DNA of 64,000 nucleotides from Acidimicrobiia bacterium (lineage in GTDB: Bacteria; Actinomycetota; Acidimicrobiia; Spongiisociales; ZC4RG35): positions 2,300,391-2,364,390 of the forward strand of contig OZ253443.1 of the NCBI GenBank assembly GCA_965261135.1, written 5' to 3'. This document shows, piece after piece, positions 15,152 through 47,720 of this stretch. Position numbers and translations under genes: made by a program. Numbering within the stretch: the first letter of the stretch is position 1; every line of letters starts with the position of its first letter. The notes below the pieces were generated by a model. The model saw only the letters and a list, made by a program, of their open reading frames with translations. It had not been told where the DNA came from and did not search any database.

Positions 15152-15240
15152 GGGCGAGTGGCGAAATTGGCAGACGCGCAGGATTCAGGATCCTGTGGGC
15201 TTTAACACCCGTGGGGGTTCAAGTCCCCCCTCGCCCACCA
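15152..15240 (+). tRNA. tRNA-Leu(CAG), CCA encoded
   Basis: Acceptor GGGCGAG/CTCGCCC, anticodon loop TTCAGGA, long variable arm, GTTCAAGTC T-loop, ends ACCA at 15240. Confidence 0.96.
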
Positions 15241-15440
15241 CGGTCCGTTAGGGAGTAATGGCCTGCGCGTTAGGGACTTAACCGCTGACGCGCTGATTTT
15301 GCCGTATTTTGGTGGTTTCGGGGGTTCTTTCCCCGTTTCAGAAGGTGGTCTTTGCTGGATCGCGTGGCCTTTAGGGTGCCCCGCTGTCAGGGTTGGGCTT
15401 TTCGGGCGCGGCGAAGCCGACAGTAGGGGTTACTGTCGGC
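15241..15440. repeat. Conserved left end, copy 1
   Basis: TTAGGGAGTAA (15248) and TTAGGGACTTA (15270); GACGCGCTGA; hairpin GCCGACAGTA-GGGGT-TACTGTCGGC (15416-15440); homologous to 37803-37995 and 39759-39947. Confidence 0.85.
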
Positions 15441-15461
15441 GAGAAGGCGGCATCGGTTGGG

Positions 15462-17249
15462 TTAGGGAGGTCCCCGGGGTGACTTGGCCGGAGTGGAGGG
15501 TGCCTCGCTGGGGGGCGTGTCCGTCGGTTCGGTTTCGGGGATGGTCTTTTCGTGTTGTGGTTGGTTTCTGCTGAAGCGGATGGCTTCTGCGATGTTGTGG
15601 GCTATGACTTTGGCGAGGGCGCCGAGGGTGATCGCCATCTGGTTGAAGACGCGGCACCATCCGACTGCGAAGGCGCCTTTGTCGCCGATCATCGAGTTTT
15701 TGGTTTCGCTGTTGTTGCGGCGGCCCTTGTAGCTTTTTGTCCACGCGGGCGTGCCCGAAGGGATTCGTTGGTAGCTGTCGAGTTTTTCGACCGGGACGGT
15801 TACCAGACCTTCACAACAGTATTCGTATTCGTCGTCGATGGCAAGATACGGAACCGGGCTTTTGGTGGGGGTTGCGTTGGAGTTGCGGGTCTTGGCGGAG
15901 GTTTTGACTCTTCCTGCGCATTGGGGGCAGATGAGTTGCACAGCACCGTCCTTGAGGTACCGGTGGACTGTCCACCGCCAGGGAGACCGGTCGACGCACC
16001 AATCTTCGAATGCCTCGCCGGTAAGGTCCGGGGACGGCACCAGGAGTTTTTCGGGTAGCCATGGTGAGAAGAACGACCCCAGATGGCGCATGAGCTGTTG
16101 TTTGTCGTTCCTTCCGACGTATACAGGGACAGGCCTTTCGACTTCGCCGGGGTTGTAGTCCATGACCACGTCCATGCCCTGCTTGTGGAGTTCTCGACAG
16201 AAGGTCTTTCGTTTGTTGGTGTAGGCGCGGTCGGCGATTATATCCTCGATCCCGGGAGCGATTTCTAATGCCCTGTCAACGAGGTCCAGTCCGACCAATC
16301 CGGGATTGGTGGCTCCGGGGACCAGGGCCATGGCGAGGATGAACTTCGGCGGAGCCTTTTTGAAGGCGAGCTTGCGGGGGTCGCCCGCCCACTTGACACC
16401 AGGAACCCCTGTAAGGAGATGGAGGTCATATCCGAGCACAATGCGGGCTTTTTCCCTGTTTGTGGCGGTTTTGTATGTGAGGCGGGCAAAGAAATCGTGG
16501 CTACGGATCATCCTCTTGTCGGAACCGAAAGTGCCGATCTCATAGGTGAAGGGACCAGTCACGGTCGGGAGTTCCGGTTCGGGAAGGTCAGCCTTGTCGC
16601 GTGCTGCAAGCTCGTGCTCGGCCAGAGCGTCCTTTTCCTTCACAAAGGTCTTGGACACCCCCCAAGATTCGAGGACCTTGGCATCTATAGAACCGGCAGT
16701 GATCAATCTCCGATATCTCTTGGGAACGGTTGCCTTCACAAAGGTGTGGCACATCCAGTCCAGATCGAAGATGGCTTCTATCTCTTCGGCCCATTTGGGA
16801 CCGAGAGCCTCTTCGAGACGTTGCATCTGGTCGCATACAGAGTGGTAACTGACCGGAGGCGGGTTGTCTAGGTCCCAGAGTCCCAGTTGGTAGGCAATCT
16901 GGGAAGGGAGACCGTTCAGCACGGCGCACAAATCGGTGCGGCGATAAGACCCCAAGATATTGGCAGCCACGATCGCGGCTAGGAATAGGGCTTCCAGGCT
17001 GATCCGAGACTTGTACCCCGGGTGGTCGCGGAGGCGCCTGTCCAACGACCGGACCCTGCGGTTCTTTCTGATTAGCGCAAGGATTGGCCGGACTTGTTCA
17101 TCGACGGTCCAGATGGGAAATGCGTTGTCGTCGAAAGTCGCAGGGAAGTCTGGCAGGCGCCGCATCTTGTCAAGGAACCGGGCATCGTCGGCGCAGAGCC
17201 GACCCTTCCTAGCGGCCCGTTGGCGGCGGCGGCGAAGCGCACGGGTCAT
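15462..17249 (-). CDS. DDE transposase-like protein (IS4/IS5/IS1182 clan), 595 aa
   Basis: Putative triad GSIDAK (D), IIADRAY (D), YKGRRNNSE (YREK-like E); CPQC...CC putative Zn motif; lies next to the element left end. Confidence 0.75.
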   Translation of the reverse strand: MTRALRRRRQRAARKGRLCADDARFLDKMRRLPDFPATFDDNAFPIWTVDEQVRPILALIRKNRRVRSLDRRLRDHPGYKSRISLEALFLAAIVAANILGSYRRTDLCAVLNGLPSQIAYQLGLWDLDNPPPVSYHSVCDQMQRLEEALGPKWAEEIEAIFDLDWMCHTFVKATVPKRYRRLITAGSIDAKVLESWGVSKTFVKEKDALAEHELAARDKADLPEPELPTVTGPFTYEIGTFGSDKRMIRSHDFFARLTYKTATNREKARIVLGYDLHLLTGVPGVKWAGDPRKLAFKKAPPKFILAMALVPGATNPGLVGLDLVDRALEIAPGIEDIIADRAYTNKRKTFCRELHKQGMDVVMDYNPGEVERPVPVYVGRNDKQQLMRHLGSFFSPWLPEKLLVPSPDLTGEAFEDWCVDRSPWRWTVHRYLKDGAVQLICPQCAGRVKTSAKTRNSNATPTKSPVPYLAIDDEYEYCCEGLVTVPVEKLDSYQRIPSGTPAWTKSYKGRRNNSETKNSMIGDKGAFAVGWCRVFNQMAITLGALAKVIAHNIAEAIRFSRNQPQHEKTIPETEPTDTPPSEAPSTPAKSPRGPP

Positions 17250-18175
17250 GCCCGCAGTGCCTCTCTGACAGCTTCGGTTTCATCGAAGGCGGTCTTGATG
17301 TGACCGAGCAACCCGTCCAAGGTGTTGGCCGACAGCGGACCCGCTACCTGCCTCAGAGCGGCAAGGGGCGTACCCGCCGCCAAGTGAGCAAGAATCCAGG
17401 TGGACCGCGCTCGGCGAAGCACAAGTCCCTCGCCGCTGCCGGGGTCGAGCCTCGCGCAGATGTTGTAAACCAGGTTGCGTCCCCCGGCCTGGATGAACCG
17501 ACCACTCCCGGTTCCCTGAAGGGCTTGACGGACCAGTTCTGTGTGCGGGGGGCGGAAGGGCGTCAAGCGGGAGTGCTTTCCCCTCACCCGCACCGCCAGT
17601 CGCCCGTTGCCCACCTCCTCAATATCCTCGACCTGAGCAACAGCGACCTCTTTGCCGTTCAGTCCCGCTCCCAGGGCGCTGGCCACTATCCACAGCCGCT
17701 CCGTTCGGTTTAGGCGGCCAGGCAGTTTGGCTACCCGCAGGTAGCACTTCTCTTCGGCACCGCCGTAGGGCGAAGCGATTGCGCTTTTGCCTACCTGCGG
17801 CGAAGGGGACGGCCACGCTCCCGGGTTGGCGGCCCGCCCCACAGCTCGCAGGACCCAACGGGCGTTCTCCCGCCAGGTCGTGGCCCGATGAGCGTTCACG
17901 GTCATTGTCCAGTATTCGACATTGTTCGGATTGAGGACGGTGCGGACATCGCTGGTCCCCAAAGAGCGGCTGGCCCAAACCGCCAAACCGGCCGTGCAAC
18001 GAAGAAACCACCGCGCCTTTTCCGGGTTCTTCGGACCCGCAGCCGCTACCCAACTCCGCACCGTGCCCATCAACGGCTCCAACACACGCAGGTCATCGTC
18101 GGTCCACCCGACGGGTTGCCACCGTTCCAACACCCTTGCCATGTCCGGCGCCAACACTGGGACTCGTTTCGCCAT
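17246..18175 (-). CDS. Tyrosine-recombinase-fold protein lacking the catalytic Arg and Tyr
   Basis: GAGLNGKEV...EDI (box A, R to N), VRGKHSR, LRRARSTW (box B), AAGTPL..LRQVAGPLSANTLDGL (box C, no His/Tyr). Its TGA overlaps the transposase ATG (ATGA). Probable start ATG 18175; the ORF track starts at 18190. Confidence 0.7.
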   Translation of the reverse strand: MAKRVPVLAPDMARVLERWQPVGWTDDDLRVLEPLMGTVRSWVAAAGPKNPEKARWFLRCTAGLAVWASRSLGTSDVRTVLNPNNVEYWTMTVNAHRATTWRENARWVLRAVGRAANPGAWPSPSPQVGKSAIASPYGGAEEKCYLRVAKLPGRLNRTERLWIVASALGAGLNGKEVAVAQVEDIEEVGNGRLAVRVRGKHSRLTPFRPPHTELVRQALQGTGSGRFIQAGGRNLVYNICARLDPGSGEGLVLRRARSTWILAHLAAGTPLAALRQVAGPLSANTLDGLLGHIKTAFDETEAVREALRA

Positions 18176-18538: not shown

Positions 18539-18871
18539 ATGCCCCAACCCCGCCAACACCCGATCACATACCTCGCAAAAAACGGTTCCTTCCCGGACGG
18601 CCCTTTCAGACCAAAAACCCCACCGGAGGTCTATCTCGCCGCTGCTTTGGCCAGGCGATTGAAGACGGGCATCCGGTATAACTCCATCCGATCCGTCGCC
18701 AAAAAAGCCGACCTCAGTCCCCAAACCATCATCAACATCCTCAACGGCAAATCCTGGCCAGACCTCCGCACCATCGCCAAACTAGAAAACGCTTTTAATA
18801 GCTGGCTATGGGGTACCGAACACCGCAGAGACTCGTGGACACACCGCAATAACCGCACTGATCGGTCTTAA
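18539..18871 (+). CDS. XRE-family helix-turn-helix regulator
   Basis: SIRSVAKKADLSPQTIINILNGKSWPDLRTIAKLE; divergent from the recombinase-like/transposase operon. Confidence 0.8.
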   Translation: MPQPRQHPITYLAKNGSFPDGPFRPKTPPEVYLAAALARRLKTGIRYNSIRSVAKKADLSPQTIINILNGKSWPDLRTIAKLENAFNSWLWGTEHRRDSWTHRNNRTDRS

Positions 18872-19225: not shown

Positions 19226-22200
19226 CTAGCGGAACCCCATTGCGCAGATAATTGTCGGTTCGGCATGTGTGGTTGTTTGTGGGGGGATGCAGAGCATGCC
19301 GTCTCGCCAAAGGCTTACCACAAGGGCAGCGAGGTCTTTTGGAGAGCGGTCCTTGACGGCTTTAGCCAGTGTCTGTGTGGCGGACTCGCGTAGTGGTCGT
19401 TCATTTATGGCGTCGTGGGCGTTTCGGAGATCGGCCAGGGTGAACAGGAGATTGTCCTCGAAGGTGTCCATGTGGGCATGCAACTCTTGCCATACCCTGC
19501 CACGGACGCCTTGTAATGCGCCGGTGGCTTGGCCTCGTGGAGTACGAAGCGGCCCTTCGAAGGCTGCTGCTGTCAGTTCGTAGTGATCCTTGAGCCGTGG
19601 TAGGGGTGGGGTGGACGGGTCGCACGCCGCGAGAGTTAGTGCTTCTTGGGCTGTCATGCGTCTCTGTTCACCGTCGGGACTCACGAACGCGAACGCGTCG
19701 GAGCCGGTCACTGTTTGGGAATGTACAAGCACACCGCTCCAGTCGCTTCGATCCGGGCTTTGCCGTGTTGAGTGAACAACGTTGGGAAGGGTGCTCGCCC
19801 GTTTTGCAAGTTCAGGGTGCCGCTCTTGGGCTTGGCGCCAGATTTCATATGCCATGGAAACGGGATCGACATCGTCAACGCCGTCTTTGAGCATGTAGTT
19901 AGACGATTCGTCGTAGAGCCCGCAGATGATCTCTCCCTCGCGTTCGTCACCAAAGAACTTCTCGTCGGAACCGAGAAGTTCGGCGTTTTCGACCAAACGT
20001 TCGCGTATGCGCTTCCGGAGGGTGATTACGCCTTCGAGGGTGTTGGACGGCATTAGAGAGTAGAGCAACACTTCGGACGAGGTTTGACCGATGCGGTCCA
20101 CCCGTCCAGCGCGTTGGATGAGTTTCACCAGAGCCCAAGGAAGGTCATAGTTGACGACAATGTGAGCGTCTTGGAGGTTCTGGCCTTCAGAAAGCACATC
20201 GGTGGATACCAGCACTCTCAGTTCGCCGCCGAGGTCCTCCGGCCGTGACCGGTTGGAGACAGGCGAGAAGCGGTGGGCTGTTCTTGTTGGGTTTTCGGAG
20301 TTTCCGGTGACCAACGCCACACCTTCGACACCGCGGCGGCGCAGTTCCTCGGTCACGTATCTGGCGGTGTCTGCGGCTTCGGTGAACACCAGCACCTTTT
20401 CATTGGCGTGCTGCTGGGCGACGAGTTCCTCCAGAGCGTTCAATTTGCCGTCCGTTTCGGGTGTCCAAGTTCCGAAGTTGTCTAGCATCTGGTCGATCAG
20501 ATCCGTGTCGTGCAGCAGGCGTTGTCGGAATTTACTTACGAAAGCGCCGACGGGGGCCCAACGGACGTTCTTGGGTTTGGTGGCTTCGAGACGAGCGTAG
20601 GCTTGTTCTGGGCTGATACCTTCCCGCTTTACTAGTGTCCCTTCGTCGTCCGTGTCGTCTCCGTCGATGTCGGTTTCCACCGGCCACAGTGCGTTGCTGA
20701 CCGAGCCGACCGGTACTGGCAGGTTGTTATCGAGAGCGTGGGACGCAACCAGGTTGCGCAGTCGGTGACGGCGAAGCGTCGCCAGGAACGCAGGCCCGGA
20801 CGACGAGAGCCGTTTGAACATCATGATCCGGTTGAATCCAGAGAGATCCCCGTGGGCTGCTTCCCGAAGGTCTGCCAAGAGTTTTGCCTCGTCGGGTGTG
20901 GCCGGCTGATAGCGGGAGTTCAGGTAGGTTCCCACCTTTGATCGAGGCAGTTTCAGATCTTTAATGGCGTCGAGGGTTGTGCCAGAAGTCATGGGCTTGG
21001 CGGGGTCGCTCTCTGCCATTTCCCGTTCGACCGGCACTGGGATCCGCTTAGGGAAGTAGAACACTGTACCGTCGCCGAAACGCAGGTACTTGCGGCTCTC
21101 GCTGTCGGTGTCTGCGTAGTTGTCTTCCACGAAACGCCGGGTCCGTCTGATCAGGTAGTGAGACATCAGCCTTTGCCAGTCTTCCAAGTGCGCGGACCGT
21201 TTGAACGCGGCCAAGGTCGATGTGCGGCCACGGCAGGCCCGTTCGAAGTCGAGGTCTCCTGCTTCTGCGATGGCCTGCTCGGGCCGGATCCCCAAATCGG
21301 TGTCATTGTCGAGGAACAGCGACAACTGCGCCGCCAGATCGGAGAGGTCCTTGTTGTAGGGGGTGGCTGTCAGTAGTAGAACTTTCGAGTCGTTGTCGGA
21401 AATATATGCTTTCAGCGCCCGATGATCGCGGCGTTTCTCGTTGCGGAGGTTGTGAGCCTCGTCTATGATGACCAGGCGGTGCCGCCGCTCCTCGGGTAGC
21501 AACTTGTGGACCATCGACAGCGACATCACCTCGCCTCGCACCTCGTAGTCATGGAGGTAGCCATCCCACATGTTCTTAAGGTTCTTGGGGCACACCACCA
21601 GCGTTTCATAGCCGTTTTCTTCTTGGAGCAGCCGCGCTACTGCTGTTCCGATCAGTGTCTTCCCCAGCCCTACCACGTCGCCGATCATGGCCCCGTTCTT
21701 CTGAGTGACGATCCTCGCTGCTATCTTCACCGCGGCTGCTTGGAACTCCAACAGTTCCTGCTGCATCGACGCTGGCAATCCGTAACTGATCAGGCCCTCC
21801 CGCGCCTCTTTTGACAGGTGGTAGGCCATTTTCAAATACACGAGATAGGGATCGAGAAGATGCCCTGAGGCCCAGGACTCGTCCAGCACCTCAACAAGGT
21901 GCGGCATCACCTCAAGAGACAGCCGATCATCCCAGCGATCGTTGAACCAGCGAGCGAGCTTCCTGGTTGCGTCAACATCCAGCATGTCCACATTCAACTC
22001 GCCCTGGGTTCGCAACCCAGAATGGGTGAGGTTCGACGAGCCAACATAGGCAACCCGCGGAGCAGCGGTGTCGTCGCGGTGACACAGATACAACTTGGCA
22101 TGCAACCGATGGGCGGTATGCAACTTCACAGCCACATCGCCATCGCTGATCTGGCGGCGCAGAGTCTGCAGGCCCGCTTCGTCGCCGACCACCGGCAAAC

Positions 22201-22519
22201 CAGCCTCTAATTGCTTTCCGAACTCTTTCACGATCTCCGCTCTGTGCTGGACAGCGGTCTTTTGGTCCACCTGGTCGAGTTGCCTTCCCCAAGCCAGTCG
22301 GCGCATCTCGTCCTGAGGTGTCTCCGCCATCCCGACCAGCACCCGCACTTTCGGTTCGCCGTCAGGCGTGTCGGGCAAAAGGTCCACCGCATCGGCTATG
22401 AGATTCCATCCCCTCAGATTGAAATACCCAACAGCCACATCAAGCGTCCGTGACGATGCCAGAGTGGTCAGGAGCGCGTCCTCAACCCTCTCATCGATGT
22501 TGTCCAAAACCAGAGGCAT
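19226..22519 (-). CDS. PLD-nuclease-domain / SNF2-like helicase fusion
   Basis: LHAKLY...YVGSSNLT (HKD-like), DVVGLGKT, IIDEAHN, LLTATP, STDVLSEGQNLQ, VNYDLPW, QRAGRVDRIGQ. Confidence 0.88.
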   Translation of the reverse strand: MPLVLDNIDERVEDALLTTLASSRTLDVAVGYFNLRGWNLIADAVDLLPDTPDGEPKVRVLVGMAETPQDEMRRLAWGRQLDQVDQKTAVQHRAEIVKEFGKQLEAGLPVVGDEAGLQTLRRQISDGDVAVKLHTAHRLHAKLYLCHRDDTAAPRVAYVGSSNLTHSGLRTQGELNVDMLDVDATRKLARWFNDRWDDRLSLEVMPHLVEVLDESWASGHLLDPYLVYLKMAYHLSKEAREGLISYGLPASMQQELLEFQAAAVKIAARIVTQKNGAMIGDVVGLGKTLIGTAVARLLQEENGYETLVVCPKNLKNMWDGYLHDYEVRGEVMSLSMVHKLLPEERRHRLVIIDEAHNLRNEKRRDHRALKAYISDNDSKVLLLTATPYNKDLSDLAAQLSLFLDNDTDLGIRPEQAIAEAGDLDFERACRGRTSTLAAFKRSAHLEDWQRLMSHYLIRRTRRFVEDNYADTDSESRKYLRFGDGTVFYFPKRIPVPVEREMAESDPAKPMTSGTTLDAIKDLKLPRSKVGTYLNSRYQPATPDEAKLLADLREAAHGDLSGFNRIMMFKRLSSSGPAFLATLRRHRLRNLVASHALDNNLPVPVGSVSNALWPVETDIDGDDTDDEGTLVKREGISPEQAYARLEATKPKNVRWAPVGAFVSKFRQRLLHDTDLIDQMLDNFGTWTPETDGKLNALEELVAQQHANEKVLVFTEAADTARYVTEELRRRGVEGVALVTGNSENPTRTAHRFSPVSNRSRPEDLGGELRVLVSTDVLSEGQNLQDAHIVVNYDLPWALVKLIQRAGRVDRIGQTSSEVLLYSLMPSNTLEGVITLRKRIRERLVENAELLGSDEKFFGDEREGEIICGLYDESSNYMLKDGVDDVDPVSMAYEIWRQAQERHPELAKRASTLPNVVHSTRQSPDRSDWSGVLVHSQTVTGSDAFAFVSPDGEQRRMTAQEALTLAACDPSTPPLPRLKDHYELTAAAFEGPLRTPRGQATGALQGVRGRVWQELHAHMDTFEDNLLFTLADLRNAHDAINERPLRESATQTLAKAVKDRSPKDLAALVVSLWRDGMLCIPPQTTTHAEPTIICAMGFR

Positions 22520-22524
22520 GACCG

Positions 22525-27107: not shown

Positions 27108-27161
27108 AAGGCATTGGACGGCCTGCCGAGACCAGCGGTTCCACAGGGAAGGATTCTGAGG

Positions 27162-30570: not shown

Positions 30571-31215
30571 TTAACGGGCGGCTTGGCAGTCAGTCAGAGA
30601 ATCCCGCGCCTCGCCCGCGACTGTGTTGAGTGTCGATTTCCATTCTTCGGTTTCCGTGGCGCCGCTCAGACGAATCGTCTTCTCCAGTACCCGCAGAGCT
30701 GGAACAAAAGTATCCACCCGACTACCGTGTCGTCGTTCCAATTCCCCAAGAGCCTCGTTGAGTGATTGGGTTTGGAGCAGCGCCGCGAAATCTTGGCGCA
30801 CCATGAATCGATAGCAGGGGTCGAGGGTCACTGGATACAGGATGCCTTTAGCGATCCGGTCAATACACACGGGGTCACTGCATTTGATTTGGTCGTTGTC
30901 CACCGCAAAGTCAACATCCATCTTTAGTTTGCGGGCTCTCTGGTCCAGGCCCTGCCGAAGGGCCGTGATTTGCTGTTCCCGTTTCTGCTGGTCAAAATCG
31001 CGGGCTTTCTGTCGTTTCACCCACGGGCGAATGTCCTGGTGGTAATGAACAATCACCCAAGCTATCCATCCCACATAGAGAACTGCGCCGGTGGTCGTAG
31101 CGGTTTGGAATCCAGTGGTTCCAGGTCCGCTGAGAAGATGCACAGCGAACAACAGGGCCGTGAATAATGTGGCGAGAGAAATTGTCAGATTGGTGCGATC
31201 AGTGGTGCTACTCAT
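30571..31215 (-). CDS. Hypothetical membrane protein (two N-terminal TM segments)
   Basis: LTISLATLFTALLFAVHLL and GAVLYVGWIAWVIVHY hydrophobic helices; co-oriented with the cargo genes. Confidence 0.6.
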   Translation of the reverse strand: MSSTTDRTNLTISLATLFTALLFAVHLLSGPGTTGFQTATTTGAVLYVGWIAWVIVHYHQDIRPWVKRQKARDFDQQKREQQITALRQGLDQRARKLKMDVDFAVDNDQIKCSDPVCIDRIAKGILYPVTLDPCYRFMVRQDFAALLQTQSLNEALGELERRHGSRVDTFVPALRVLEKTIRLSGATETEEWKSTLNTVAGEARDSLTDCQAAR

Positions 31216-34400: not shown

Positions 34401-34865
34401 GGCGCTCCGGTCAAGTTTGAGTAGCGCACATCCGAGTTCTAGTGATGCTCGGCCCGGTTCGGTCACTAGAGCGGCCGAGGGGGAAGGTAGTCGACGACCC
34501 ATGGCTGTCGCATTAGGCGTTCTATCACCTCGGATGGCGCTGACCTGGCCGGCGAATGTAAGCACGAGTTGTTGGCCCGGGTCGAGATCGTCGTTCTGGA
34601 GCGCGAGGTCAAAGATGTGTGCGGCGACAGCGTTTGCCTGGACTTGCCGGGTGGTCTCGTAGATGGCGAGTTGGGGCCGGACCGTTCCGACATGGTGGAG
34701 ATTCCATGCCGTCTCGAGGAGTCGGTCGCTGACCTCCTGGTCGGATCGGAAGAACGCCGCCACTTCCGCTTCGGCCAGCATCCTTCGCAGTTGTTCAGGG
34801 CTCGGTAAGTTAGCGGTTTGATCGAGGGCACCGGCAACCAGCCTGCGGTCCAGGGCTTGATCCAT
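31437..34865 (-). CDS. Ski2-like DEAD/DEAH helicase (Hachiman HamB-like)
   Basis: FPTNAGKT, VMTPEQL, FVFDEAHLV, LLSAAL, RGVAYHHAAL, ATSTLTEGVNLP, NAAGRAGRAG. Confidence 0.85.
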   Translation of the reverse strand: MDQALDRRLVAGALDQTANLPSPEQLRRMLAEAEVAAFFRSDQEVSDRLLETAWNLHHVGTVRPQLAIYETTRQVQANAVAAHIFDLALQNDDLDPGQQLVLTFAGQVSAIRGDRTPNATAMGRRLPSPSAALVTEPGRASLELGCALLKLDRSATLKLLRSLSTQAQAISLAAPNADLFNTGLASATGVTEGVRLLQEYLTFGRPGSLDEARRILTRAANNPASHRDLDSRWVAAHLVDLCDDFGRSSIWAILPDNSPHDVGQAMTLGDPPVMTLWPPQVKLLTDAANSPLQINMKRAVITFPTNAGKTLLSQLLVIQHLAVADTGVCFVAPSHSLCRETREGLDRRLWVLRRRTVEDGPLGDSHGAHADVVVMTPEQLASRLRSDEQALIDKFGLFVFDEAHLVGDDTRGWSFETTISRLHSLTSDTDHRILLLSAALGGTAAIQTWLGIEGAGTSTTSTWRGPRRLHATYTYWEDRASKVVRAPTGRQSVPRTVTDLYGVINLYADEGAAIASRRAKIGQISTTPSGTQEKPSRAEKLLPIVDLAARSGPVLIVHATRPSAERLAEEIAKTRDETQATVKIAQLAEQRMGAAHNLVTVLRRGVAYHHAALPADIQAEIEDAVRQGTIKILCATSTLTEGVNLPVRTVIISERGYYDGTKFNAFIDSVGLMNAAGRAGRAGRETEGWVVVNYEYGAPNPRQALQGLDRQPEIRSTLSVEGALEQLAEYETLVHATAALALQNVPATVDGFLAYCWFLADIADMLNPDDRRDRVIAGIQETLAWHQLPPGIQSRWGAIASLVADFYEQTPPVQRRRWARSGTPLSANIVLEEVAGGAAAAIDALEPSAFDDPVALIDAILRDGRLHLLLGLANPRDFRFKRRRYGPIETINVDLLALVLDWVRGMPLKNLAETHLSEVQGGDEESFRFEQLSTFLTRICEHHLPFTLGTVVEWINADRNDEVSPSLPAHLHYGVPDAEALRLLMGGVRSRRIAVEVGKRAAFDGISPHRLRPWLANMGPARWRTNFDAVPTEVADLLYFVHVPETEIGASLVGGNVCTMKVDASGVAWGAGDLPVSIATGDENPRPLVVTNDVGVTVGRIRASEHRHLAFLIDAGFQLLATPTAKAKDGTVISIQIRVEFD

Positions 34866-35900
34866 CTACTCGATGCCCTTCAGGATTTCTGAGCGGACAT
34901 CTGCTGCGAACGCCGCCAAATCGGGGACCTCGATGACAATGCCTTCGCGATGTTGAGGGGTCTCAAGGTACGGGAACACCCTGCGAAGTCCCCGAAATGG
35001 GCGATCTGGCAATGCTTGGGTGGAGGTGGTTCCTACCGATACTCCGACACCGCCAGATGCATCCCGAATCGTCCAGAGCTTAACGATCTTGCCTGCGAGC
35101 TGCTGTATCCGCGGGTCGGCGTTGAGTTGAAGAGGCTTGGACATCCGCGCTAGATACATGGCACCCCGTGTCTTGAGTTGAGCGGACGCACCACTAACGA
35201 CCTCAGTGACAGACTTCGTGATCGAGTCATGCCGCTTCGATTCCCACAGCCGGAACCGAAGGTCGGGAGAGTCAGAGTCGTAGAGCGACAAACCGTCGCC
35301 TCCAGGGTCGATGACCGAGAAGTGATCGCGAGGCACACATATGGGCACCCCCCAACCACCGTTGATATCCTCCGCCAGACAAGCCCATAGATGCTCGACT
35401 ACGGCACCCTGTAGCCGCGGCTCGTTACTGTCGTCATCGAAGTCGCTGAGCAGGTACGCCTCGAGTACATCCTTGGTCGGCTCGTCGTGGGCGGGCCCAC
35501 CTCCGTGTCGCTCCATCCAGTTGGCTAGGGCCGCGGGGCTCGGATCAAGCAATCGGCAGACGATGTGAATGGTGACCAACCGCACGACTTCGCGGCGATG
35601 CCCGCTAATGATCTGAGCGTGAAACCACCAAGCGTCGCTATGCCGCGTCAGAGTTAAAGCGAAGTGATCGGAAAAAGTCACGACAGATGTTTCCAGGTTC
35701 GATCCTCCCTGCCGTGCTTTATTGGACGATGGGGACGGACGGGAATTGGGATCACTGGCAATCTCCGTTAAGGATATGTTCCCTAGGTTTGCTGTTTGTA
35801 CGGATGGTGGTTTCGCCTTCGCCGGTAGGAGTCCGGACCAGTCACACAGGTATCGGAGTGGCCGCCACCAAAAGAACCGGGGGCTGTGGCGGTGCCACAT
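34866..35900 (-). CDS. PD-(D/E)xK-like nuclease (Hachiman HamA-like); true start probably near GTG 35681
   Basis: GAVVEHLW, DPGGDGL, RFRLWESKRH; stop directly abuts the helicase start (TAG-ATG). Confidence 0.6.
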   Translation of the reverse strand: MWHRHSPRFFWWRPLRYLCDWSGLLPAKAKPPSVQTANLGNISLTEIASDPNSRPSPSSNKARQGGSNLETSVVTFSDHFALTLTRHSDAWWFHAQIISGHRREVVRLVTIHIVCRLLDPSPAALANWMERHGGGPAHDEPTKDVLEAYLLSDFDDDSNEPRLQGAVVEHLWACLAEDINGGWGVPICVPRDHFSVIDPGGDGLSLYDSDSPDLRFRLWESKRHDSITKSVTEVVSGASAQLKTRGAMYLARMSKPLQLNADPRIQQLAGKIVKLWTIRDASGGVGVSVGTTSTQALPDRPFRGLRRVFPYLETPQHREGIVIEVPDLAAFAADVRSEILKGIE

Positions 35901-36110: not shown

Positions 36111-37154
36111 CTAGTCGAAAGTCTCGTATGGGATCTCAACGCCCAAATCCATGTCCGCCACCGCCTCGGCAAGCACATGAGAAGGTATGGCCGCATAGTG
36201 CGGCGAGAAAGCTACTTGGTCTTCGTATTCGCCATGGGTCAAATTCGTAGCCATCCCTACAACATAGCCATCCTCTGAGATGATCGCCCCGCCGCTGTCC
36301 CCAGGACGTGTTATGGCCGAATAAAGAAACAGTTCCGTCCTATCAGCCGCTACGACATGTTCGTTCGTCACTTCTCCGCTTTGCATGATGAGATAAGCAT
36401 CTGTCTCGCTCGGCCTCCTTGGTCTGACATTGGGTACCTTGGGGTACCCGAAGGTGTAGACCCTCTGTGCGATCATCGGAGCCAGAAAGACAAGACCCCG
36501 TGCTGGCGTCAGTGTTTCATCCACGCGGATTACGGCTACGTCGTAGTCGTTGTGTTTGAAGATCGAGTTTGACCTTATGACTATCTCCTGCTCTTGGAAC
36601 CTCTGGGTACATCTGACTGTCATCATCTCCACAACATGGCGACAGGTGAGCACGTGATAAGGATCGAAGACGATGCCACTTCCCGATCTCTCGTCACCCT
36701 TTTGGTTTTTTCCGACAATCTGCACAATTGCAGGAGAAACCTCATGATGGACGAATCTGCCACCTAACGAGCGGGCCAGCCACAGACTTCCCCTGCTTTG
36801 GGCTTCCGTCTGTTCGCCGAGGGCGTAGTAGGACTTGGGGATCATGACGAATCGGCCGCGGCTGCCCATCTCCACGAGAATGTTGTTTGATGCGAGTCGA
36901 TCAAGCAGATGTCGTATCTGGTGTATGTACTTGTTCGCTTCGTCTCCCAAGGTCTTCTCCAAGAACTCCACAAAGTCCCTACCGTCAAACGGAACGATCC
37001 GCCCTTGTTCTGGGGTTTTTCCTATGGCCTGGCAGAATTGTGGGTAGTTAGTGGGAGAAAAGAACGCTACAGCTAGCGTCGCTATTGTCTTCTCCATCTC
37101 GACAGGCAAGGGAGCAAGTCTGGAGTATCTTTCCCGTGCCATTCTGTTAGCCAC
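36111..37154 (-). CDS. Trypsin-like serine protease domain protein with an N-terminal helical domain
   Basis: GSGIVF, LTCRHVV (His), DYDVAVIRV (Asp), PGDSGGAII (Ser). Confidence 0.85.
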   Translation of the reverse strand: MANRMARERYSRLAPLPVEMEKTIATLAVAFFSPTNYPQFCQAIGKTPEQGRIVPFDGRDFVEFLEKTLGDEANKYIHQIRHLLDRLASNNILVEMGSRGRFVMIPKSYYALGEQTEAQSRGSLWLARSLGGRFVHHEVSPAIVQIVGKNQKGDERSGSGIVFDPYHVLTCRHVVEMMTVRCTQRFQEQEIVIRSNSIFKHNDYDVAVIRVDETLTPARGLVFLAPMIAQRVYTFGYPKVPNVRPRRPSETDAYLIMQSGEVTNEHVVAADRTELFLYSAITRPGDSGGAIISEDGYVVGMATNLTHGEYEDQVAFSPHYAAIPSHVLAEAVADMDLGVEIPYETFD

Positions 37155-37689: not shown

Positions 37690-37783
37690 CCGCAAATGTG
37701 GAACAACCCCCCTTTCAAATGTGGAGCACTCCTGGCAACCCCCGCTAGGGTGCTGGTCAGGGGTGGTCACTAACGGACCACCA
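37690..37783. repeat. Conserved right end, copy 1 (end of element 1)
   Basis: CAAATGTGGA at 37693 and 37716 (23-bp period), GGTCAGGGGTGG, TIR, then CCA repeats; homologous to 39668-39758. Confidence 0.85.
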
Positions 37784-39755
37784 CCACCAAGACCAAGGGG
37801 TCTTAGCGATTTATGGCCCCGACTGTTAGCCACTTAGCGGCAGACGCGCCGATTCTCCTTGGATTTCCCTGGTTTTAGGGGTTCGCTACCGTTTTGGAGG
37901 GTGTTTTAGGCTGGTCAGCAGCCGTGATCCGGCGGCTTGGGGGAAGGGCCTGCTTTCTCGGACGCGGCGTGGCCGACAGTAGGGGTTACGGTCGGTTCAG
38001 GGGAGCGGTGGGGATGGTACAGGCTAGGGGATCATCGCCGGTTGAGAACGTCGTCTGGGTGGCGCAGTCGGCCGGGGCCGGACCAATGACCCGGGGGTGG
38101 CGAGTTCCGAACCAACCTTCATGGGGACCTGCTATCGGGAGGAGGAACATGCCCTTGGGGAACTCCTGGAGGGAATGACTCTGGCCAGCAACAGGTTCGC
38201 CGTGACAATCCCCACGGCACCTATCAGCACATAGTCGATGTTCGCCACTTGTATGTCCGAGAACACCCACAACCACAGCAGGCCGAAAAGGGGAGTGGCA
38301 TAGGAGAGGGCGCTGATGGACAGCGATCTGGTGCGGAGCATCGCAGTGCGGTGACATACGGCGGTGCCACATTGCACTATCAGCCCGTAAGCAAATGCGG
38401 CGGCAAGAGGCAGAATGCCCATGCGCTCTCCCGTGCCGAGAGCGATCACGAGTGTGGGCACCGACGCGCCGAGGCTGCCCACCCCAATCGCCAACAGCAC
38501 GCACGCCGACTCGGTTCGCTGCCGGTCAGCGGCTGATGCATGGCCCATGGTGCACAGATCGGAGGCCATCTCGGATCCCCATCGGAATGCCCTGGCACTG
38601 AACGATATCAACACGGGGGCCAGCAACGCCAGGAGCAATCCGATAACCAAACCTCCGAGACGTGCAGGCCGAGTAGAGGAGGCCAGGTCGGTCGTTCCCA
38701 GCACGACCAACGTCAGACCCGCGAAAGCAAGCAACAGCACTCCAAAGGTACCCGCGGTCAGTTTGCGGTATCTGCCCACGGTACGATCCTGTCTTGACAA
38801 CAGCACCACAAAGAGAATCGGCGCAGCGGCATTCAGTATGGCGGTGACGGCAGTATCCACATAGTTGGTGGACAACACATAAGGGATCATGCTGATCTGA
38901 GCGCAGATACACACCAAGCTCAAGCGGGACAGCAACATCTGGCGTTCCCGGTCGGCCGTGCCCTCGCCCCGTCCGATCCGCCAAGGGGCGGCCCTGCGGA
39001 GCAGCAACCGCAGAACGGTCCTGTCGGCCACCAGGTTCTTGTGGAAAAGGGCCAGATTCAACGCGACACCCGCGGAGTTGCCCACGAAAATCATTCCCGA
39101 CAACAGAAAAGCGTCCTCATGGGGCATGACCTCCACGAATATGGGGAACAGGGAGGCCAACAACACCGCGCCTAGTTGCCACCTCACCGGCGCGTACCGC
39201 CCCGGTTGGCGCGCAACGGATACGGAAGAGCCCTGACTGGTCATTAGGGCATCTAGCCTATGCTGGGAGCCCGGCCATCTACGAACCGCCGAACAACCGG
39301 CTCGGCGCGTCAGGCGTTCAGTCAGGGGTACCAGCGGAGGACTTCGTTCGTAGCGTGAAGAATCCGCCAGATACCAGCACCTACGCCCGATATGGGGATC
39401 CATTTTGACATACTCCTTGGAATGGCTCGCCGAACTCGCCGATGCCGCCCCGACAGTGCCCCAGGTTCCGCCCCCCACGCGTCTACTATTCCCAACGCCG
39501 CATGGCAACGCAGGCCACTCTTGAAGAATCACTACAAGAGATAGTCTGTCGCACCCGCCTCTTAGTGCTAGAACTCCAGGAGGAAGGTTTCTTTGTCGAG
39601 ACCTTCGGATTTTCCTGCATCGACGACTTCACCCCCCGTCGGGAAACCCAACCACACCTACTCTGCTGAAATGTGGAGCCCCACCCCCTTCAAATGTGGA
39701 ACCCTCTGCGAGCCCTTTTCTAAGGCGCAGGTCAGAGGTGGTAGCTAACAGCCCA
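37784..39755. mobile_element. Element 2: about 2-kb non-autonomous element (left end, EamA cargo, right end)
   Basis: Left-end motifs at 37803/37826 and hairpin 37973-37995; right-end motifs at 39669/39692; no mobility gene. Confidence 0.65.
38132..39244 (-). CDS. EamA/DMT family transporter (probable start ATG 39244)
   Basis: About ten hydrophobic segments; VDTAVTAILNAAAPILFVVLL and ISALSYATPLFGLLWLW are DMT-like repeats. Confidence 0.75.
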   Translation of the reverse strand: MTSQGSSVSVARQPGRYAPVRWQLGAVLLASLFPIFVEVMPHEDAFLLSGMIFVGNSAGVALNLALFHKNLVADRTVLRLLLRRAAPWRIGRGEGTADRERQMLLSRLSLVCICAQISMIPYVLSTNYVDTAVTAILNAAAPILFVVLLSRQDRTVGRYRKLTAGTFGVLLLAFAGLTLVVLGTTDLASSTRPARLGGLVIGLLLALLAPVLISFSARAFRWGSEMASDLCTMGHASAADRQRTESACVLLAIGVGSLGASVPTLVIALGTGERMGILPLAAAFAYGLIVQCGTAVCHRTAMLRTRSLSISALSYATPLFGLLWLWVFSDIQVANIDYVLIGAVGIVTANLLLARVIPSRSSPRACSSSR

Positions 39756-39758
39756 CCA
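39668..39758. repeat. Conserved right end, copy 2 (end of element 2), plus GCCCACCA junction
   Basis: AAATGTGGA at 39669 and 39692, GCAGGTCAGAGGTGG, TAGCTAACAGCCCACCA; same 52-bp spacing from the second repeat to CCACCA as copy 1. Confidence 0.85.
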
Positions 39759-39969
39759 CGATGCATTAGCGATTTAGGGTCCTGTGCGTTAGCGATTTAG
39801 CGACGGACGCGCCGAATTTCCCTGATTTTGGGGGTTTGTGACCGTTTCGGAGAGTGTTTTGGCTGGTCAGCGGCGGTGTTGTGACAGCCTGGTGGTTGGG
39901 TTAGGTTTTTCGGACGCGGTGAAACCGACAGTAGGGGTTACTGTCGGCGAAGAAGATCGAGAGGGTTGC

Positions 39970-40465
39970 TCAGGGCGGCGCTCGGGGTGACTCGTCCGGC
40001 GTATGGTGCGTTACGCCCGTGAATGTATCCGATGGTCCGGTCTCGTTGATGGGGGTGGGGTGTTGGGCTCTGCGGAAGCGGATGGCTTCTGCGAGGTTGT
40101 GTGCTATGACCTTGGCGAGGACACCGAGGGTCATGGCCACCCGGTTGAAGACGCGGTACCATCCGACTGCGAAGTTGCCCTTGTCGCCGATCATCGAGTT
40201 TTTGGTTTCGCTGGTGTTGCGACGGCCCTTGTAGCCCTTCCTCCACGCAGGCGTGCCCGGGGGGATGCGTTGGTAGCTGTCGAGTTTTTCGACCGGGACG
40301 GTTACCAGGCCTTCACAGCAGTATTCGTCGTCGATGGCAAGGGACGGAACCGGGTTCTTGGTGGGGATTACGTTGGGGTTGCGGGTCTTGGCGGAGGTCT
40401 TGCCTCTTCCTGCGCATTGGGGGCAGATGAGTTGCACAGCACCGTCCTTGAGGTACCTGTGGACC
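39970..40465 (-). pseudogene. 3' fragment of a transposase paralogous to 15462-17249
   Basis: VHRYLKDGAVQLICPQCAGR...YKGRRNTSETKNSMIGDKG...VIAHNLAEAIRF, roughly 85% identical by eye over about 130 aa; homology stops near 40465. Confidence 0.9.
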
Positions 40466-41046: not shown

Positions 41047-41055
41047 AGGCGCTGG

Positions 41056-47629: not shown

Positions 47630-47720
<91 letters not shown>

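What the first reader, a model, noticed from the sequence alone, without database searches (positions are those of the whole stretch)
15152..40465. Candidate new system: tRNA-CCA-targeted transposon family stacked three deep, driven by a DDE transposase plus a dead tyrosine recombinase
Seen in sequence: the layout is tRNA-Leu...CCA | element 1 (15241-37780) | CCA repeats | element 2 (37784-39755) | CCA | element 3 (39759 onward). All three share a co-oriented left end of about 200 bp, and elements 1 and 2 share a right end of about 90 bp. The tRNA stays intact. The element nearest the tRNA is complete (transposase, recombinase-like gene, XRE regulator, cargo), the next has no mobility genes, and the third keeps only a transposase stump. 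That gradient fits repeated insertion at the tRNA 3' end pushing older copies outward. Established: tRNA-targeted islands normally use active tyrosine or serine integrases; IS4-clan DDE enzymes are not normally tRNA-specific; Tn7-like elements can use a tyrosine-recombinase-derived target selector (TnsF). Inference: a non-Tn7 DDE transposon guided to a safe site by a co-opted dead recombinase. I do not recognise this as a described family.
Basis: partly seen in the sequence, partly recalled or inferred. Interest (0 to 1): 0.93.

Follow-up and report, generated by a model that had tools for sequence, protein, structure and literature searches.

The report
tRNA-end-targeting transposon family, stacked
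Downstream of a tRNA-Leu gene lies a stack of at least three mobile elements from an apparently undescribed actinobacterial transposon family that always inserts exactly five bases past the tRNA acceptor stem, leaves the tRNA intact, carries anti-phage genes, and encodes a cut-and-paste-type transposase together with a recombinase-like protein that has lost its catalytic residues.

Summary
tRNA-Leu(CAG) at 15152-15240 is followed by element 1 (15242-37779), element 2 (37797-39754) and element 3 (from 39760). All are co-oriented and share about 220-bp left ends. Elements 1 and 2 also share about 90-bp right ends.

Element 1 is flanked by the same 5 bp, ACCAC, made of the discriminator base, CCA and one more base. 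A related genome has elements 2 and 3 but not element 1, so element 1 is the newest.

Across about 40 fetched loci from Acidimicrobiia MAGs and cultured Streptomyces, Gordonia and Yimella, the module is the same. A divergent XRE gene is followed by a 300-aa gene B, then a 590-aa gene A overlapping it by 4 nt, then 210-275 bp, then the 3' end of a tRNA or tmRNA. At least 11 tRNA species and tmRNA are used.

The element starts exactly 5 nt after the acceptor stem whether or not CCA is encoded, so CCA itself is not the target.

A is a distant IS1182/IS4-like DDE transposase. B has a tyrosine-recombinase fold but lacks the nucleophile tyrosine.

That B selects the target is inference, not shown. 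I found no description of the family in the literature I could search.

The parts
15152..15240 (+). tRNA-Leu(CAG), intact; the target gene
   Evidence: ARAGORN; Rfam tRNA, 56 bits; promoter-like site at 15109-15138
15237..15241 (.). Left copy of the 5-bp target duplication ACCAC (discriminator A, CCA, one more base)
   Evidence: Read; the same 5 bp recurs at 37780-37784
15242..15461 (+). Element 1 left end. It holds the 13-bp terminal inverted repeat GGTCCGTTAGGGA, a second copy of the 12-mer GTTAGGGAnTTA about 30 bp further in, T-rich tracts, and a conserved hairpin CCGACAGTA...TACTGTCGG.
   Evidence: Alignment of 15 left ends; the hairpin has 4 compensatory pairs; the length is constant at 218-229 bp across Acidimicrobiia loci
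15462..17249 (-). Gene A, 595 aa: a DDE transposase distantly related to IS1182/IS4. It has invariant D188, D339 and E514, a Y506-R510-E514 motif, and a Cys cluster at C440, C443, C477 and C478.
17246..18175 (-). Gene B, 309 aa: tyrosine-recombinase fold without the catalytic Tyr. Its stop overlaps the A start as ATGA.
18539..18871 (+). XRE-type HTH regulator, divergent from B; the third conserved gene of the module
   Evidence: Pfam HTH_3, E = 3.9e-9; homologs in the same position in 11 other loci; HTH_31 in Streptomyces L041
19226..37154 (-). Element 1 cargo, mostly defence-like. It comprises an HKD/PLD-SNF2 helicase (19226-22519), a Type IIG restriction-methylase (22525-25737), four unassigned ORFs (26250-31215), a HamB-like DEAD helicase (31437-34865) with an unassigned upstream partner (34866-35900), and a trypsin-like protease (36111-37154).
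   Evidence: Pfam; PADLOC: REase_MTase_IIG 6e-161, HKD+Snf2 1e-48, HamB 2e-58
37694..37779 (+). Element 1 right end: two AAATGTGGA repeats, then GGTCAGGGGTGGT, then the terminal 12-mer CACTAACGGACC (the inverted repeat of the left terminus)
37780..37784 (.). Right copy of the 5-bp duplication ACCAC for element 1
37785..37796 (.). Twelve extra bases, CACCAAGACCAA, between elements 1 and 2. The last five, ACCAA, fit the duplication left of element 2. The rest is unexplained and may be a footprint.
   Evidence: the junction differs in L001 and L027
37797..39754 (+). Element 2, non-autonomous. It has a left end (37797-38020), one ORF for a multi-pass membrane protein (38132-39532, minus strand) and a right end (39669-39754). 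It has no A, B or XRE gene.
   Evidence: 90% identical copy directly at the tRNA in L027
39755..39759 (.). 5-bp spacer ACCAC between elements 2 and 3
39760..40465 (+). Element 3: left end (39760-39969) plus a 3' stump of gene A (39970-40465, minus strand, matching residues 428-595, 77% aa identity). It is truncated, and no right end was found.
42148..42192 (+). Probable degenerate left-end remnant of a fourth, oldest element. Chromosomal homology with a related genome resumes near 42284.

Best explanation
This is a family of site-specific DDE transposons of Actinomycetota that home to the 3' end of tRNA and tmRNA genes.

Shown by sequence comparison:
- Each element has about 13-bp imperfect terminal inverted repeats, lineage-specific subterminal repeats, and a fixed gene module at its left end (XRE regulator, B, A).
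- It is inserted so that its first base is the sixth base after the last acceptor-stem pair.
- In the lineages where both ends could be read, a 5-bp direct duplication (discriminator plus 4 nt) flanks the element. This leaves the tRNA gene intact.
- Repeated insertion at the same point gives head-to-tail arrays. Older copies are pushed outward and decay. Non-autonomous copies keep only the ends.

Inferred:
- A, an IS1182/IS4-like DDE transposase, binds the terminal 12/13-mers and makes cuts staggered by 5 bp in the target.
- B is a tyrosine-recombinase-fold protein that has lost its nucleophile and most of the catalytic pentad, yet is highly conserved and translationally coupled to A. I infer it acts as a DNA-binding accessory. 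Most likely it recognises the tRNA gene and positions A. Alternatively, or in addition, it binds the AATGTGGA repeats and organises the transpososome.
- The XRE protein controls expression of the divergent B-A operon.
- The cargo, here a Type IIG restriction-modification enzyme, an HKD-SNF2 helicase and a Hachiman-like helicase, is carried passively.
For: **Anatomy in the window:**

**Family-wide synteny and tRNA adjacency:**
- tblastn finds B directly upstream of every full-length A.
- ARAGORN finds a convergent tRNA or tmRNA 210-300 bp past the A stop in at least 19 distinct loci.
- The genes used are Leu-CAG, Leu-GAG, Ser-TGA, Ser-GCT, Lys-TTT, Val-TAC, Val-GAC, Val-CAC, Pro-CGG, Ala-TGC and tmRNA.

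**Precise junction rule:** the pattern discriminator+4 | element holds in most junctions read, including tRNAs with no encoded CCA and four Streptomyces, Gordonia and Yimella loci. L012 is one base longer, and L013 and L027 carry 5 extra bases.

**5-bp duplication:** identical 5 bp flank the tRNA-proximal element or array in the window, L001, L008, L003 and L028. Twenty-nine right ends were found, most followed by a 5-bp spacer and then the next left end.

**Order of insertion:** L027 has the tRNA followed by elements 2 and 3, without element 1.

**A is a DDE enzyme:**
- D188, D339 and E514 are invariant in 34 sequences.
- 14 of 34 members hit DDE_Tnp_1 and 13 of 34 hit DDE_Tnp_1_6.
- 19 of 34 hit the IS1182 model.
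- The AF2 model has pLDDT 82, and its best PDB fold match is Tn5 transposase at probability 0.93.
- The Streptomyces homolog aligns at hhalign probability 99.9.

**B is a dead recombinase:**
- The AF2 model has pLDDT 89, and Foldseek matches Cre, XerA, XerH and Tn1549 Int with E down to 8e-8.
- hhalign to XerD and Cre places Asn at Arg-I and Pro at His-III.
- Leu takes the place of Tyr by conserved spacing from the aligned Gly-Pro (XerD His270 to Tyr279 is 9 residues). The hhalign alignment itself ends at Gly279.
- Across 166 aligned family members the Tyr position is Leu in 153 and never Tyr.

**No other recombinase:** Pfam found no other integrase, resolvase or Tn7 gene in the element 1 ORFs scanned.

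**Transposase clades track tRNA identity.** One MAG holds four lineages, three of them at three different tRNAs and the fourth at a contig end.
Against: - Nothing here tests activity. No polymorphic or empty site of a single strain, no excised form and no biochemistry were available.
- The role of B is assigned only by analogy with TnsD and TnsF. It could equally be an end-binding or regulatory factor.
- The DDE assignment rests on sub-threshold profile hits and a weak fold match (Foldseek E about 0.009, TM about 0.3).
- The 5-bp duplication could be verified only in the Leu-CAG and tmRNA lineages. Right ends were out of reach for the others.
- Spacers inside long arrays differ at positions 4 and 5 (ACCAC, ACCAA, ACCAG, ACCGA). 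Strict re-insertion at one site does not predict this.
- The 12 extra bases at the element 1/2 junction are unexplained.
- A minority of B homologs carry a Tyr three residues further on (position 292, 25 of about 160). Residual chemistry in some branches cannot be excluded.
Confidence: 0.75

Rival explanations
1. B is not a target selector. It is an end-binding architectural or regulatory subunit, for example one that binds the AATGTGGA repeats of the right end, synapses the ends or inhibits transposition. On this view A alone reads the tRNA gene through its long N-terminal region or its Cys-rich insertion domain.
For: The right end carries 2-3 direct AATGTGGAG repeats that are absent from the left end and unrelated to the terminal 12-mer. 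This suggests a second DNA-binding protein acting at the ends. Tyrosine recombinases natively synapse DNA sites. A has about 180 residues ahead of the first catalytic Asp and four invariant Cys, which is room enough for a target-recognition domain.
Against: This is not excluded by any result here. The translational coupling and strict co-inheritance of B with A across a phylum, and the TnsF precedent, fit either role.
Confidence: 0.3
2. B is still the recombinase. It would work with a non-canonical nucleophile or with a host Xer partner and integrate the element at the tRNA like a classical island. A would be a co-travelling IS-type gene.
For: tRNA 3' ends are the classic targets of tyrosine integrases (PMC10484663). 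B keeps one or two conserved Arg (R255, R257) and an invariant Tyr137. A Tyr occurs at position 292 in 25 of about 160 homologs.
Against: - The duplicated target is only 5 bp, and the ends are inverted repeats. Both are hallmarks of DDE transposition, not of att-site recombination.
- Arg-I, His-II, His/Trp-III and the Tyr nucleophile are all lost or variable.
- Tyr292 is not conserved and is His in this window's protein.
- A is fixed at the element terminus with a constant 210-275 bp spacing. It is invariant at D, D and E, and it decays to stumps together with the elements.
Confidence: 0.05
3. The stack is not the product of repeated targeted insertion. It arose by tandem duplication or homologous recombination of one ancestral island that happened to lie next to a tRNA, and was then inherited vertically.
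For: Several of the closest loci (L001, L006, L008, L027) are the same chromosomal site in related Acidimicrobiia. Part of the tRNA-Leu association is therefore vertical.
Against: - The same module lies at 11 or more different tRNA genes and at tmRNA, in hosts from different actinobacterial classes and orders.
- The three left ends in the window are only 71-93% identical and carry different cargo.
- L027 lacks element 1 while keeping elements 2 and 3.
- Near-identical non-autonomous copies occupy two slots of the L003 tmRNA array.
- Each junction has the same 5-bp register.
Confidence: 0.03

Closest known systems
Tn6022-type Tn7-like transposons with TnsF (Faure et al. 2023, PMC10293859)
   Same: A DDE transposon that homes to one conserved host site and makes a short target duplication. 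It encodes an accessory protein derived from a tyrosine recombinase that has lost catalysis.
   Different: - This element has no TnsA, TnsB (rve), TnsC or TniQ.
- Its transposase is IS1182/IS4-like, not retroviral-integrase-like.
- B is about 300 aa with a complete two-domain recombinase fold and no zinc-finger N-terminus. TnsF is 498 aa with zinc fingers, two CB domains and only a partial catalytic domain.
- The target is a tRNA 3' end, not comM.
- Arrays show there is no target immunity.
IS1182 / IS4-superfamily insertion sequences (Tn5 and IS50 as the structural reference)
   Same: The predicted RNase-H-like DDE core has an insertion domain between the second Asp and the Glu, and a Y..R...E motif around the Glu. 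Elements have terminal inverted repeats and a short target duplication.
   Different: - All profile hits are below the curated thresholds.
- The element is a large cargo-carrying transposon (22.5 kb here), not a 1.3-2 kb IS.
- It carries two extra conserved genes, B and XRE.
- It has strict site specificity.
- The two ends are asymmetric, with different subterminal repeats.
tRNA-integrating genomic islands, AICEs and tycheposon-like elements driven by tyrosine integrases
   Same: They use the same niche, the 3' end of tRNA and tmRNA genes. They leave the tRNA intact, accrete in tandem and carry defence cargo.
   Different: Those elements use an active integrase and recreate the tRNA end through an att repeat that is usually much longer (own knowledge). 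Here the repeat is 5 bp, the ends are inverted repeats and the recombinase homolog is dead.
Family 2 casposons
   Same: These are non-tyrosine-recombinase elements that insert at tRNA 3' ends with a target duplication (papers listed; details from my own knowledge).
   Different: Casposons use a Cas1 integrase and a PolB polymerase. Neither was found in the element 1 ORFs scanned.

Membership tests
DDE transposases of the IS4/IS1182 supergroup (gene A) | RNase-H-like fold with a conserved Asp, Asp, Glu triad | tested here: met
   D188, D339 and E514 are invariant in 34 homologs. In the AF2 model they lie on strand 184-193, after strand 335-338 and in helix 500-521. The best PDB fold matches are Tn5, piggyBac and P-element transposases.
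DDE transposases of the IS4/IS1182 supergroup (gene A) | Score above the curated threshold of a family model (Pfam DDE_Tnp_1 or NCBIfam IS1182) | tested here: not met
   The window protein hits nothing. Relatives hit only weakly: 14 of 34 for PF01609 (best 5.8e-6) and 19 of 34 for NF033551 (best 7.6e-8).
DDE transposases of the IS4/IS1182 supergroup (gene A) | Terminal inverted repeats and a short fixed-length target duplication | tested here: met
   The 13-bp termini match at 12 of 13 positions in element 1. An identical 5-bp flank was found in 5 independent cases.
Tyrosine recombinases (gene B) | Two-domain recombinase fold (core-binding plus catalytic domain) | tested here: met
   AF2 pLDDT is 89. 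Foldseek matches Cre, XerA, XerH and Tn1549 Int at probability 1.0, with E down to 7.8e-8.
Tyrosine recombinases (gene B) | Catalytic Arg-Lys-His-Arg-His/Trp pentad plus the Tyr nucleophile | tested here: not met
   Assignments combine the hhalign alignments to XerD and Cre with conserved spacing beyond their ends, and counts over 166 members.
- The Arg-I position is Asn here and variable in the family (Arg in 49).
- The His/Trp-III position is Pro in 122.
- The Tyr position is Leu in 153 and Tyr in 0.
- Only R255 and R257 are conserved.
Tn7-like transposons | TnsB (rve-type DDE), TnsC (AAA+) and TniQ/TnsD, usually with TnsA | tested here: not met
   No rve, TniQ, TnsA or AAA+ regulator was found among the ORFs scanned in elements 1 and 2, or among the called genes of related loci next to B-A.
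TnsF (Tn6022 target selector) | About 500 aa; N-terminal zinc fingers, two CB domains, a partial catalytic domain, and operonic with TniQ | tested here: not met
   B is 309 aa with no Cys-rich N-terminus, and its neighbour is a DDE gene, not tniQ. Direct sequence comparison with TnsF was not done. The TnsF description comes from PMC10293859.
Integrase-driven tRNA genomic islands | An active integrase next to the tRNA and a long direct repeat of the tRNA 3' part at the far end | tested here: not met
   The repeat is 5 bp. The only recombinase-fold protein lacks the nucleophile. No serine recombinase was found.
RNA-guided transposition (bridge-RNA or CAST-like) | An element-encoded RNA with a stretch complementary to the target | tested here: inconclusive
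   The longest shared words between the tRNA and the left end or the region upstream of B are 6-11 nt, with no consistent position across 12 loci. Rfam finds nothing in the ends. Right ends and cargo were not searched.

The most novel reading that the evidence does not exclude
A compact system of two proteins (A and B) plus an XRE regulator is widespread in Actinomycetota. The B-like family has at least 1,600 clusters at 50% identity. In this reading, a domesticated dead tyrosine recombinase reads the tRNA gene and places an IS1182-like DDE transposase at a fixed 5-nt register from the acceptor stem. Lineages retarget between tRNAs through the evolution of B. This would be a second, independent invention of protein-guided safe-site DDE transposition outside Tn7. 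It would also be a small, cargo-tolerant site-specific insertion tool (at least 22 kb of cargo here) for high-GC Gram-positive bacteria.
Probability: 0.4. Interest if true: 0.9.

Novelty: new variant of a known kind. Interest (0 to 1): 0.82.

Why it matters
tRNA and tmRNA 3' ends are the best-known landing sites for genomic islands. That niche is considered the preserve of tyrosine and serine integrases, and DDE transposons are rarely found there (PMC10484663). This family shows a DDE transposon lineage occupying the niche with single-nucleotide precision and a duplication that preserves the tRNA.

Its recombinase-derived accessory protein parallels TnsF of Tn6022, but in an unrelated transposase background.

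The family builds long arrays that act as defence-gene depots in Acidimicrobiia, many from MAGs whose names suggest marine sponge sources. It is also present, unannotated, in cultured Streptomyces, Gordonia and Yimella, so it can be tested at the bench.

It offers three things:
- a new marker for delimiting islands in Actinomycetota;
- a natural experiment in how target selectors evolve;
- possibly a small site-specific integration system.

Tried and rejected
- **Direct family assignment of A and B failed.** Pfam, NCBIfam and PDB sequence searches, with single sequences and with profiles, gave nothing for the window proteins. Assignment needed family alignments, AF2 models and Foldseek.
- **RNA guide.** I looked for tRNA-complementary stretches in the left end and upstream of B in 12 loci and found only chance-length words. 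Rfam found no family in the ends. This idea was dropped as unsupported.
- **Terminator in the window's left end.** The simple scan found none. Canonical hairpin plus T-run terminators are visible only in the Streptomyces and Gordonia left ends, so this is reported only as a side note.
- **Verifying the 5-bp duplication outside the Leu and tmRNA lineages.** I searched for an inverted copy of the left terminus followed by the expected 5-mer in 13 loci. No right end lay within the 6-10 kb flanks.
- **Metagenome scan with the A profile.** It gave only 8 loci, mostly duplicates of genome loci.
- **Comparing divergence of the N- and C-terminal halves of B between same-target and different-target pairs.** There was no clear signal, so it was not used as evidence.
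- **DISARM or BREX for the cargo.** PADLOC points instead to a Type IIG enzyme, an HKD-SNF2 helicase and a HamB-like helicase.
- **Literature.** Seven full-text searches found no description of this family. ISfinder and TnCentral could not be consulted.


Full report
**1. The observation**

ARAGORN and Rfam find an intact tRNA-Leu(CAG) at 15152-15240, with a promoter-like site just upstream.

The repeat search confirms three co-oriented copies of a roughly 200-bp sequence starting near 15241, 37792 and 39755. It also confirms two copies of a roughly 90-bp sequence ending at 37779 and 39754. A 3' fragment of the large ORF at 39970-40465 is 89-93% identical in DNA to 15560-15968.

Reading the junctions gives these coordinates:

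| Feature | Coordinates | Notes |
|---|---|---|
| Element 1 | 15242-37779 | Termini GGTCCGTTAGGGA and, in reverse complement, GGTCCGTTAGTGA |
| Flanking duplication of element 1 | 15237-15241 and 37780-37784 | ACCAC on both sides |
| Extra bases | 37785-37796 | CACCAAGACCAA |
| Element 2 | 37797-39754 | Non-autonomous |
| Spacer | 39755-39759 | ACCAC |
| Element 3 | from 39760 | Truncated |

The left copy of ACCAC is the discriminator base, CCA and one more base. This is why the tRNA is unharmed.

**2. Gene content**

- Element 1 carries a 595-aa ORF (A, 15462-17249, minus strand) next to the tRNA.
- A 309-aa ORF (B, 17246-18175) has a stop codon that overlaps the start of A as ATGA.
- A divergent XRE-type HTH gene lies at 18539-18871.
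- About 18 kb of cargo follows. It includes a Type IIG restriction-methylase (PADLOC 6e-161), an HKD-SNF2 helicase, a HamB-like helicase with an unassigned partner, and a trypsin-like protease.
- Element 2 holds one membrane-protein ORF and no mobility gene.
- Element 3 keeps only the last 168 codons of A.
- Pfam found no integrase, resolvase or Tn7 gene in the ORFs scanned.

**3. The two proteins**

Neither protein hits Pfam, NCBIfam or PDB sequences on its own.

*Gene A.* The word-indexed search found only 53 homolog clusters.
- In an alignment of 34 sequences, D188, D339 and E514 are invariant. So are Y506, R510 and four Cys.
- 14 of 34 members give weak DDE_Tnp_1 hits, 13 of 34 give DDE_Tnp_1_6 hits, and 19 of 34 hit the IS1182 model.
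- The AF2 model (pLDDT 82) puts the three acidic residues on the expected elements of an RNase-H-like core. Its best PDB matches are Tn5 transposase (probability 0.93), then the piggyBac and P-element transposases.
- I conclude that A is a divergent DDE transposase nearest to IS1182/IS4. It is not a member of any curated family model.

*Gene B.* The AF2 model (pLDDT 89) matches Cre, XerA, XerH and Tn1549 integrase at Foldseek probability 1.0.
- Profile alignment to Cre and XerD places Asn173 at Arg-I and Gly279-Pro280 at Gly-His(III).
- Leu289 takes the place of the nucleophile Tyr by conserved spacing from Gly279-Pro280. The hhalign alignment itself ends at Gly279.
- Across 166 aligned family members the Tyr position is Leu in 153 and never Tyr. 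The His-III position is Pro in 122. The Arg-I position is variable. Only R255 and R257 are conserved.
- B is therefore a tyrosine-recombinase fold that cannot do canonical chemistry, yet it is strongly conserved.
- One caveat: a non-conserved Tyr lies three residues further on in 25 members. It is His in this window's protein.

**4. Is it a family, and is it tRNA-specific?**

I fetched 46 loci through homologs of A and B. Several are duplicates.

*Synteny.* tblastn shows B immediately upstream of every full-length A. In L003 and L004/5, B is split by IS21, IS3 and IS256 insertions. The XRE gene is found in the same divergent position in 11 other loci.

*tRNA adjacency.* ARAGORN finds a tRNA or tmRNA on the opposite strand, with its 3' end facing A and 210-300 bp from the A stop, in at least 19 distinct loci. 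The genes are Leu-CAG, Ser-TGA, Ser-GCT, Lys-TTT, Val-TAC, Val-GAC, Pro-CGG and tmRNA in Acidimicrobiia MAGs.

*Exceptions.* Most lie in long arrays (L003, L004, L015, L026), carry an IS inside the left end (L011), or reach contig ends.

*Size of the B family.* A profile search with B against 1.84 billion representative proteins returned 2,419 hits, 1,619 of them below 1e-10. This led to cultured actinomycetes:

| Organism | Locus | Adjacent tRNA |
|---|---|---|
| Streptomyces tateyamensis | L039 | tRNA-Leu(CAG) |
| Streptomyces sp. NBC_01725 | L041 | tRNA-Leu(GAG) |
| Gordonia spumicola | L043 | tRNA-Ala(TGC) |
| Yimella sp. cx-51 | L045/L046 | tRNA-Val(CAC) |

A further distant B-like locus from an NCBI assembly whose organism was not determined (L040) lies next to tRNA-Leu(CAG), with only a 275-aa ORF in place of A. 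The four isolate loci have the same HTH / B / A / about 210-275 bp / tRNA layout. In L043 the small divergent gene has no HTH hit. NCBI names these proteins 'hypothetical protein' or plain 'transposase'.

**5. The junction rule and the duplication**

In most junctions I read, the element starts exactly 5 nt after the last acceptor-stem pair. L012 is one base longer, and L013 and L027 carry 5 extra bases (section 10). Examples:
- ACCAC|GG... at tRNA-Leu
- GCTCA|GG... at tRNA-Ser, where no CCA is encoded
- ACCCG|GG... at tRNA-Lys and tmRNA
- ACAGC|GGG... and ACTCA|GGG... in Streptomyces
- ACAAG|TGG... in Gordonia

The register is therefore set from the tRNA body, not from CCA.

Left ends carry two direct copies of a lineage-specific 9-12-mer about 30 bp apart. 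In Acidimicrobiia they also carry a hairpin, CCGACAGT...ACTGTCGG, with four compensatory pairs.

Right ends carry 2-3 AATGTGGAG repeats, then GGTCAGGGGTGGT, then a 12-mer that is the inverted repeat of the left terminus. I found 29 such right ends.

The tRNA-proximal element or array is flanked by identical 5-mers in five cases:
- the window: ACCAC
- L001: ACCAC
- L008: ACCAT
- L003: ACCCG
- L028: ACCAG at the tmRNA and at the outer array border

Inside arrays, consecutive elements are separated by exactly 5 bp. Arrays reach at least 8 elements (L026).

Inverted termini plus a fixed short duplication are the signature of DDE transposition, not of att-site recombination.

**6. Order of events**

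L027, a related Acidimicrobiia genome, has the same chromosomal flank and tRNA-Leu. These are followed directly by a 90%-identical element 2, the same element 3 stump and the same downstream DNA. It has no element 1.

In L008 the array ends with ...CACCCC|ACCAA| followed by chromosome that matches the window from about 42284. The window has no intact outer right end. It does have a degenerate fourth left-end remnant near 42148-42192.

In L003, two near-identical non-autonomous copies occupy two slots of a tmRNA array. This argues for recent mobilisation in trans.

**7. Specificity**

Transposase clades track tRNA identity:
- The Leu-CAG clade is 71-84% identical.
- The Ser-TGA clade is 83% identical.
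- The Ser-GCT clade is 63-72% identical.

L010 (Lys) and L011 (Ser-TGA) are 71% identical, which indicates a switch of target. One MAG (OM1 bin76) holds four lineages, three at different tRNAs and the fourth at a contig end.

This pattern points to sequence-specific recognition by an element-encoded factor, not to a generic affinity for any tRNA. I found no tRNA-complementary stretch that could serve as an RNA guide.

**8. Mechanism**

*Shown:* the anatomy, the register, the duplication, the arrays, the co-inheritance of XRE, B and A, and the loss of catalytic residues in B.

*Inferred:*
- A binds the terminal repeats and inserts the element with 5-bp staggered cuts spanning tRNA positions 73-77.
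- B is a DNA-binding accessory, most likely the target selector, by analogy with TnsF (PMC10293859).
- XRE regulates the divergent operon.

*Main rival:* B binds the ends instead, and A reads the target.

*Other rivals:* a residual recombinase role for B, or a purely duplicative origin of the stack. Both are poorly supported.

**9. Comparison with known systems, and novelty**

- It is not Tn7-like, because no TnsABC or TniQ is present.
- It is not an integrase-driven island.
- It is not a casposon.
- Its transposase falls below the threshold of every curated IS model.
- The closest functional analogue is Tn6022 with TnsF. The closest relatives of the enzyme are IS1182/IS4 elements.

Seven full-text searches found no description of this family. 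ISfinder and TnCentral were not available, so prior curation there cannot be excluded.

I rate it a new variant of a known kind, namely a site-specific DDE transposon with a dedicated accessory protein. It forms a new family that spans Actinomycetota.

**10. Open points**

- The variable fourth and fifth spacer bases inside arrays.
- The 12 extra bases at the element 1/2 junction.
- The 5 extra bases at the tRNA junction in L013 and L027, which may be footprints.
- The function of the conserved left-end hairpin and of the AATGTGGAG repeats.
- The 5-bp duplication outside the Leu and tmRNA lineages. Right ends were beyond the fetched flanks.

Noticed in passing
window 40642-41760 (minus strand): A PIN_10 domain gene (40642-41046) and an HTH/DUF433 gene (41056-41760) form a toxin-antitoxin-like pair directly behind the element 3 transposase stump. 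They may be old cargo of element 3.
   Followed up: partly
window 42148-42192: A degenerate stretch of about 45 nt aligns with the first 45 nt of the left ends. It is probably the remnant of a fourth, oldest element. Homology to the chromosome of L008 resumes near 42284.
   Followed up: partly
window 37785-37796; L013 and L027 tRNA junctions: Extra bases lie between a 5-bp duplication and the next element: 12 nt in the window and 5 nt in L013 and L027. L027 also has a 29-nt mini-remnant that joins a left 13-mer to a right ...GGCCCC. These could be excision footprints or internal deletions.
   Followed up: no
window 46628-46895 (minus strand), 47499-47720, 56988-57064: Bacterial large SRP RNA, two adjacent tRNA-Ser genes (GGA and GCT) and tRNA-Arg(ACG). 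In this window none of them has a family element downstream, although tRNA-Ser(GCT) is a target in other genera.
   Followed up: no
L003 11764-19446; L004; L026: Arrays of 4 to at least 8 family elements lie at one site, a tmRNA in L003. They mix left-end types and include near-identical non-autonomous copies carrying N-terminally truncated A genes. Spacers differ at positions 4 and 5 within one array.
   Followed up: partly
L003 7426-9515; L004/L005 7247-9845; L011 about 11990-12660: Other insertion sequences (IS21, IS3, IS256, and an unidentified transposase-like insert in L011) have landed inside gene B or inside the left end. The arrays appear to act as sinks for further mobile DNA.
   Followed up: no
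proteins P0119, P0121, P0221, P0254 (B-like family): Some B homologs carry 2-4 tandem copies of the N-terminal (core-binding-like) domain ahead of one C-terminal domain. Others have long unrelated N-terminal extensions. P0174 starts with what looks like the C-terminal end of a transposase.
   Followed up: no
L039 9440-9535, L041 7940-8037, L043 7790-7879 (left ends): In the Streptomyces and Gordonia lineages a strong hairpin followed by a T-run lies 45-85 nt after the tRNA, in the tRNA's direction of transcription. The element appears to supply a new terminator for the tRNA gene. The simple scan did not flag an equivalent in the window's left end.
   Followed up: partly
window 15399-15439, 37955-37995, 39907-39947: A conserved left-end hairpin, CCGACAGTA-loop-TACTGTCGG, lies 20-50 bp past the A stop codon. 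Four of its pairs show compensatory changes across lineages. Its function is unknown; it could be a protein site, an mRNA 3' structure or a DNA hairpin.
   Followed up: partly
window 13904-15015 and L001 12237-18238: The chromosomal flank on the 5' side of the tRNA is an FHA / PP2C phosphatase / FtsW-RodA / PBP / PASTA-kinase cluster. This helped identify L001, L006, L008 and L027 as the same locus in related genomes.
   Followed up: yes
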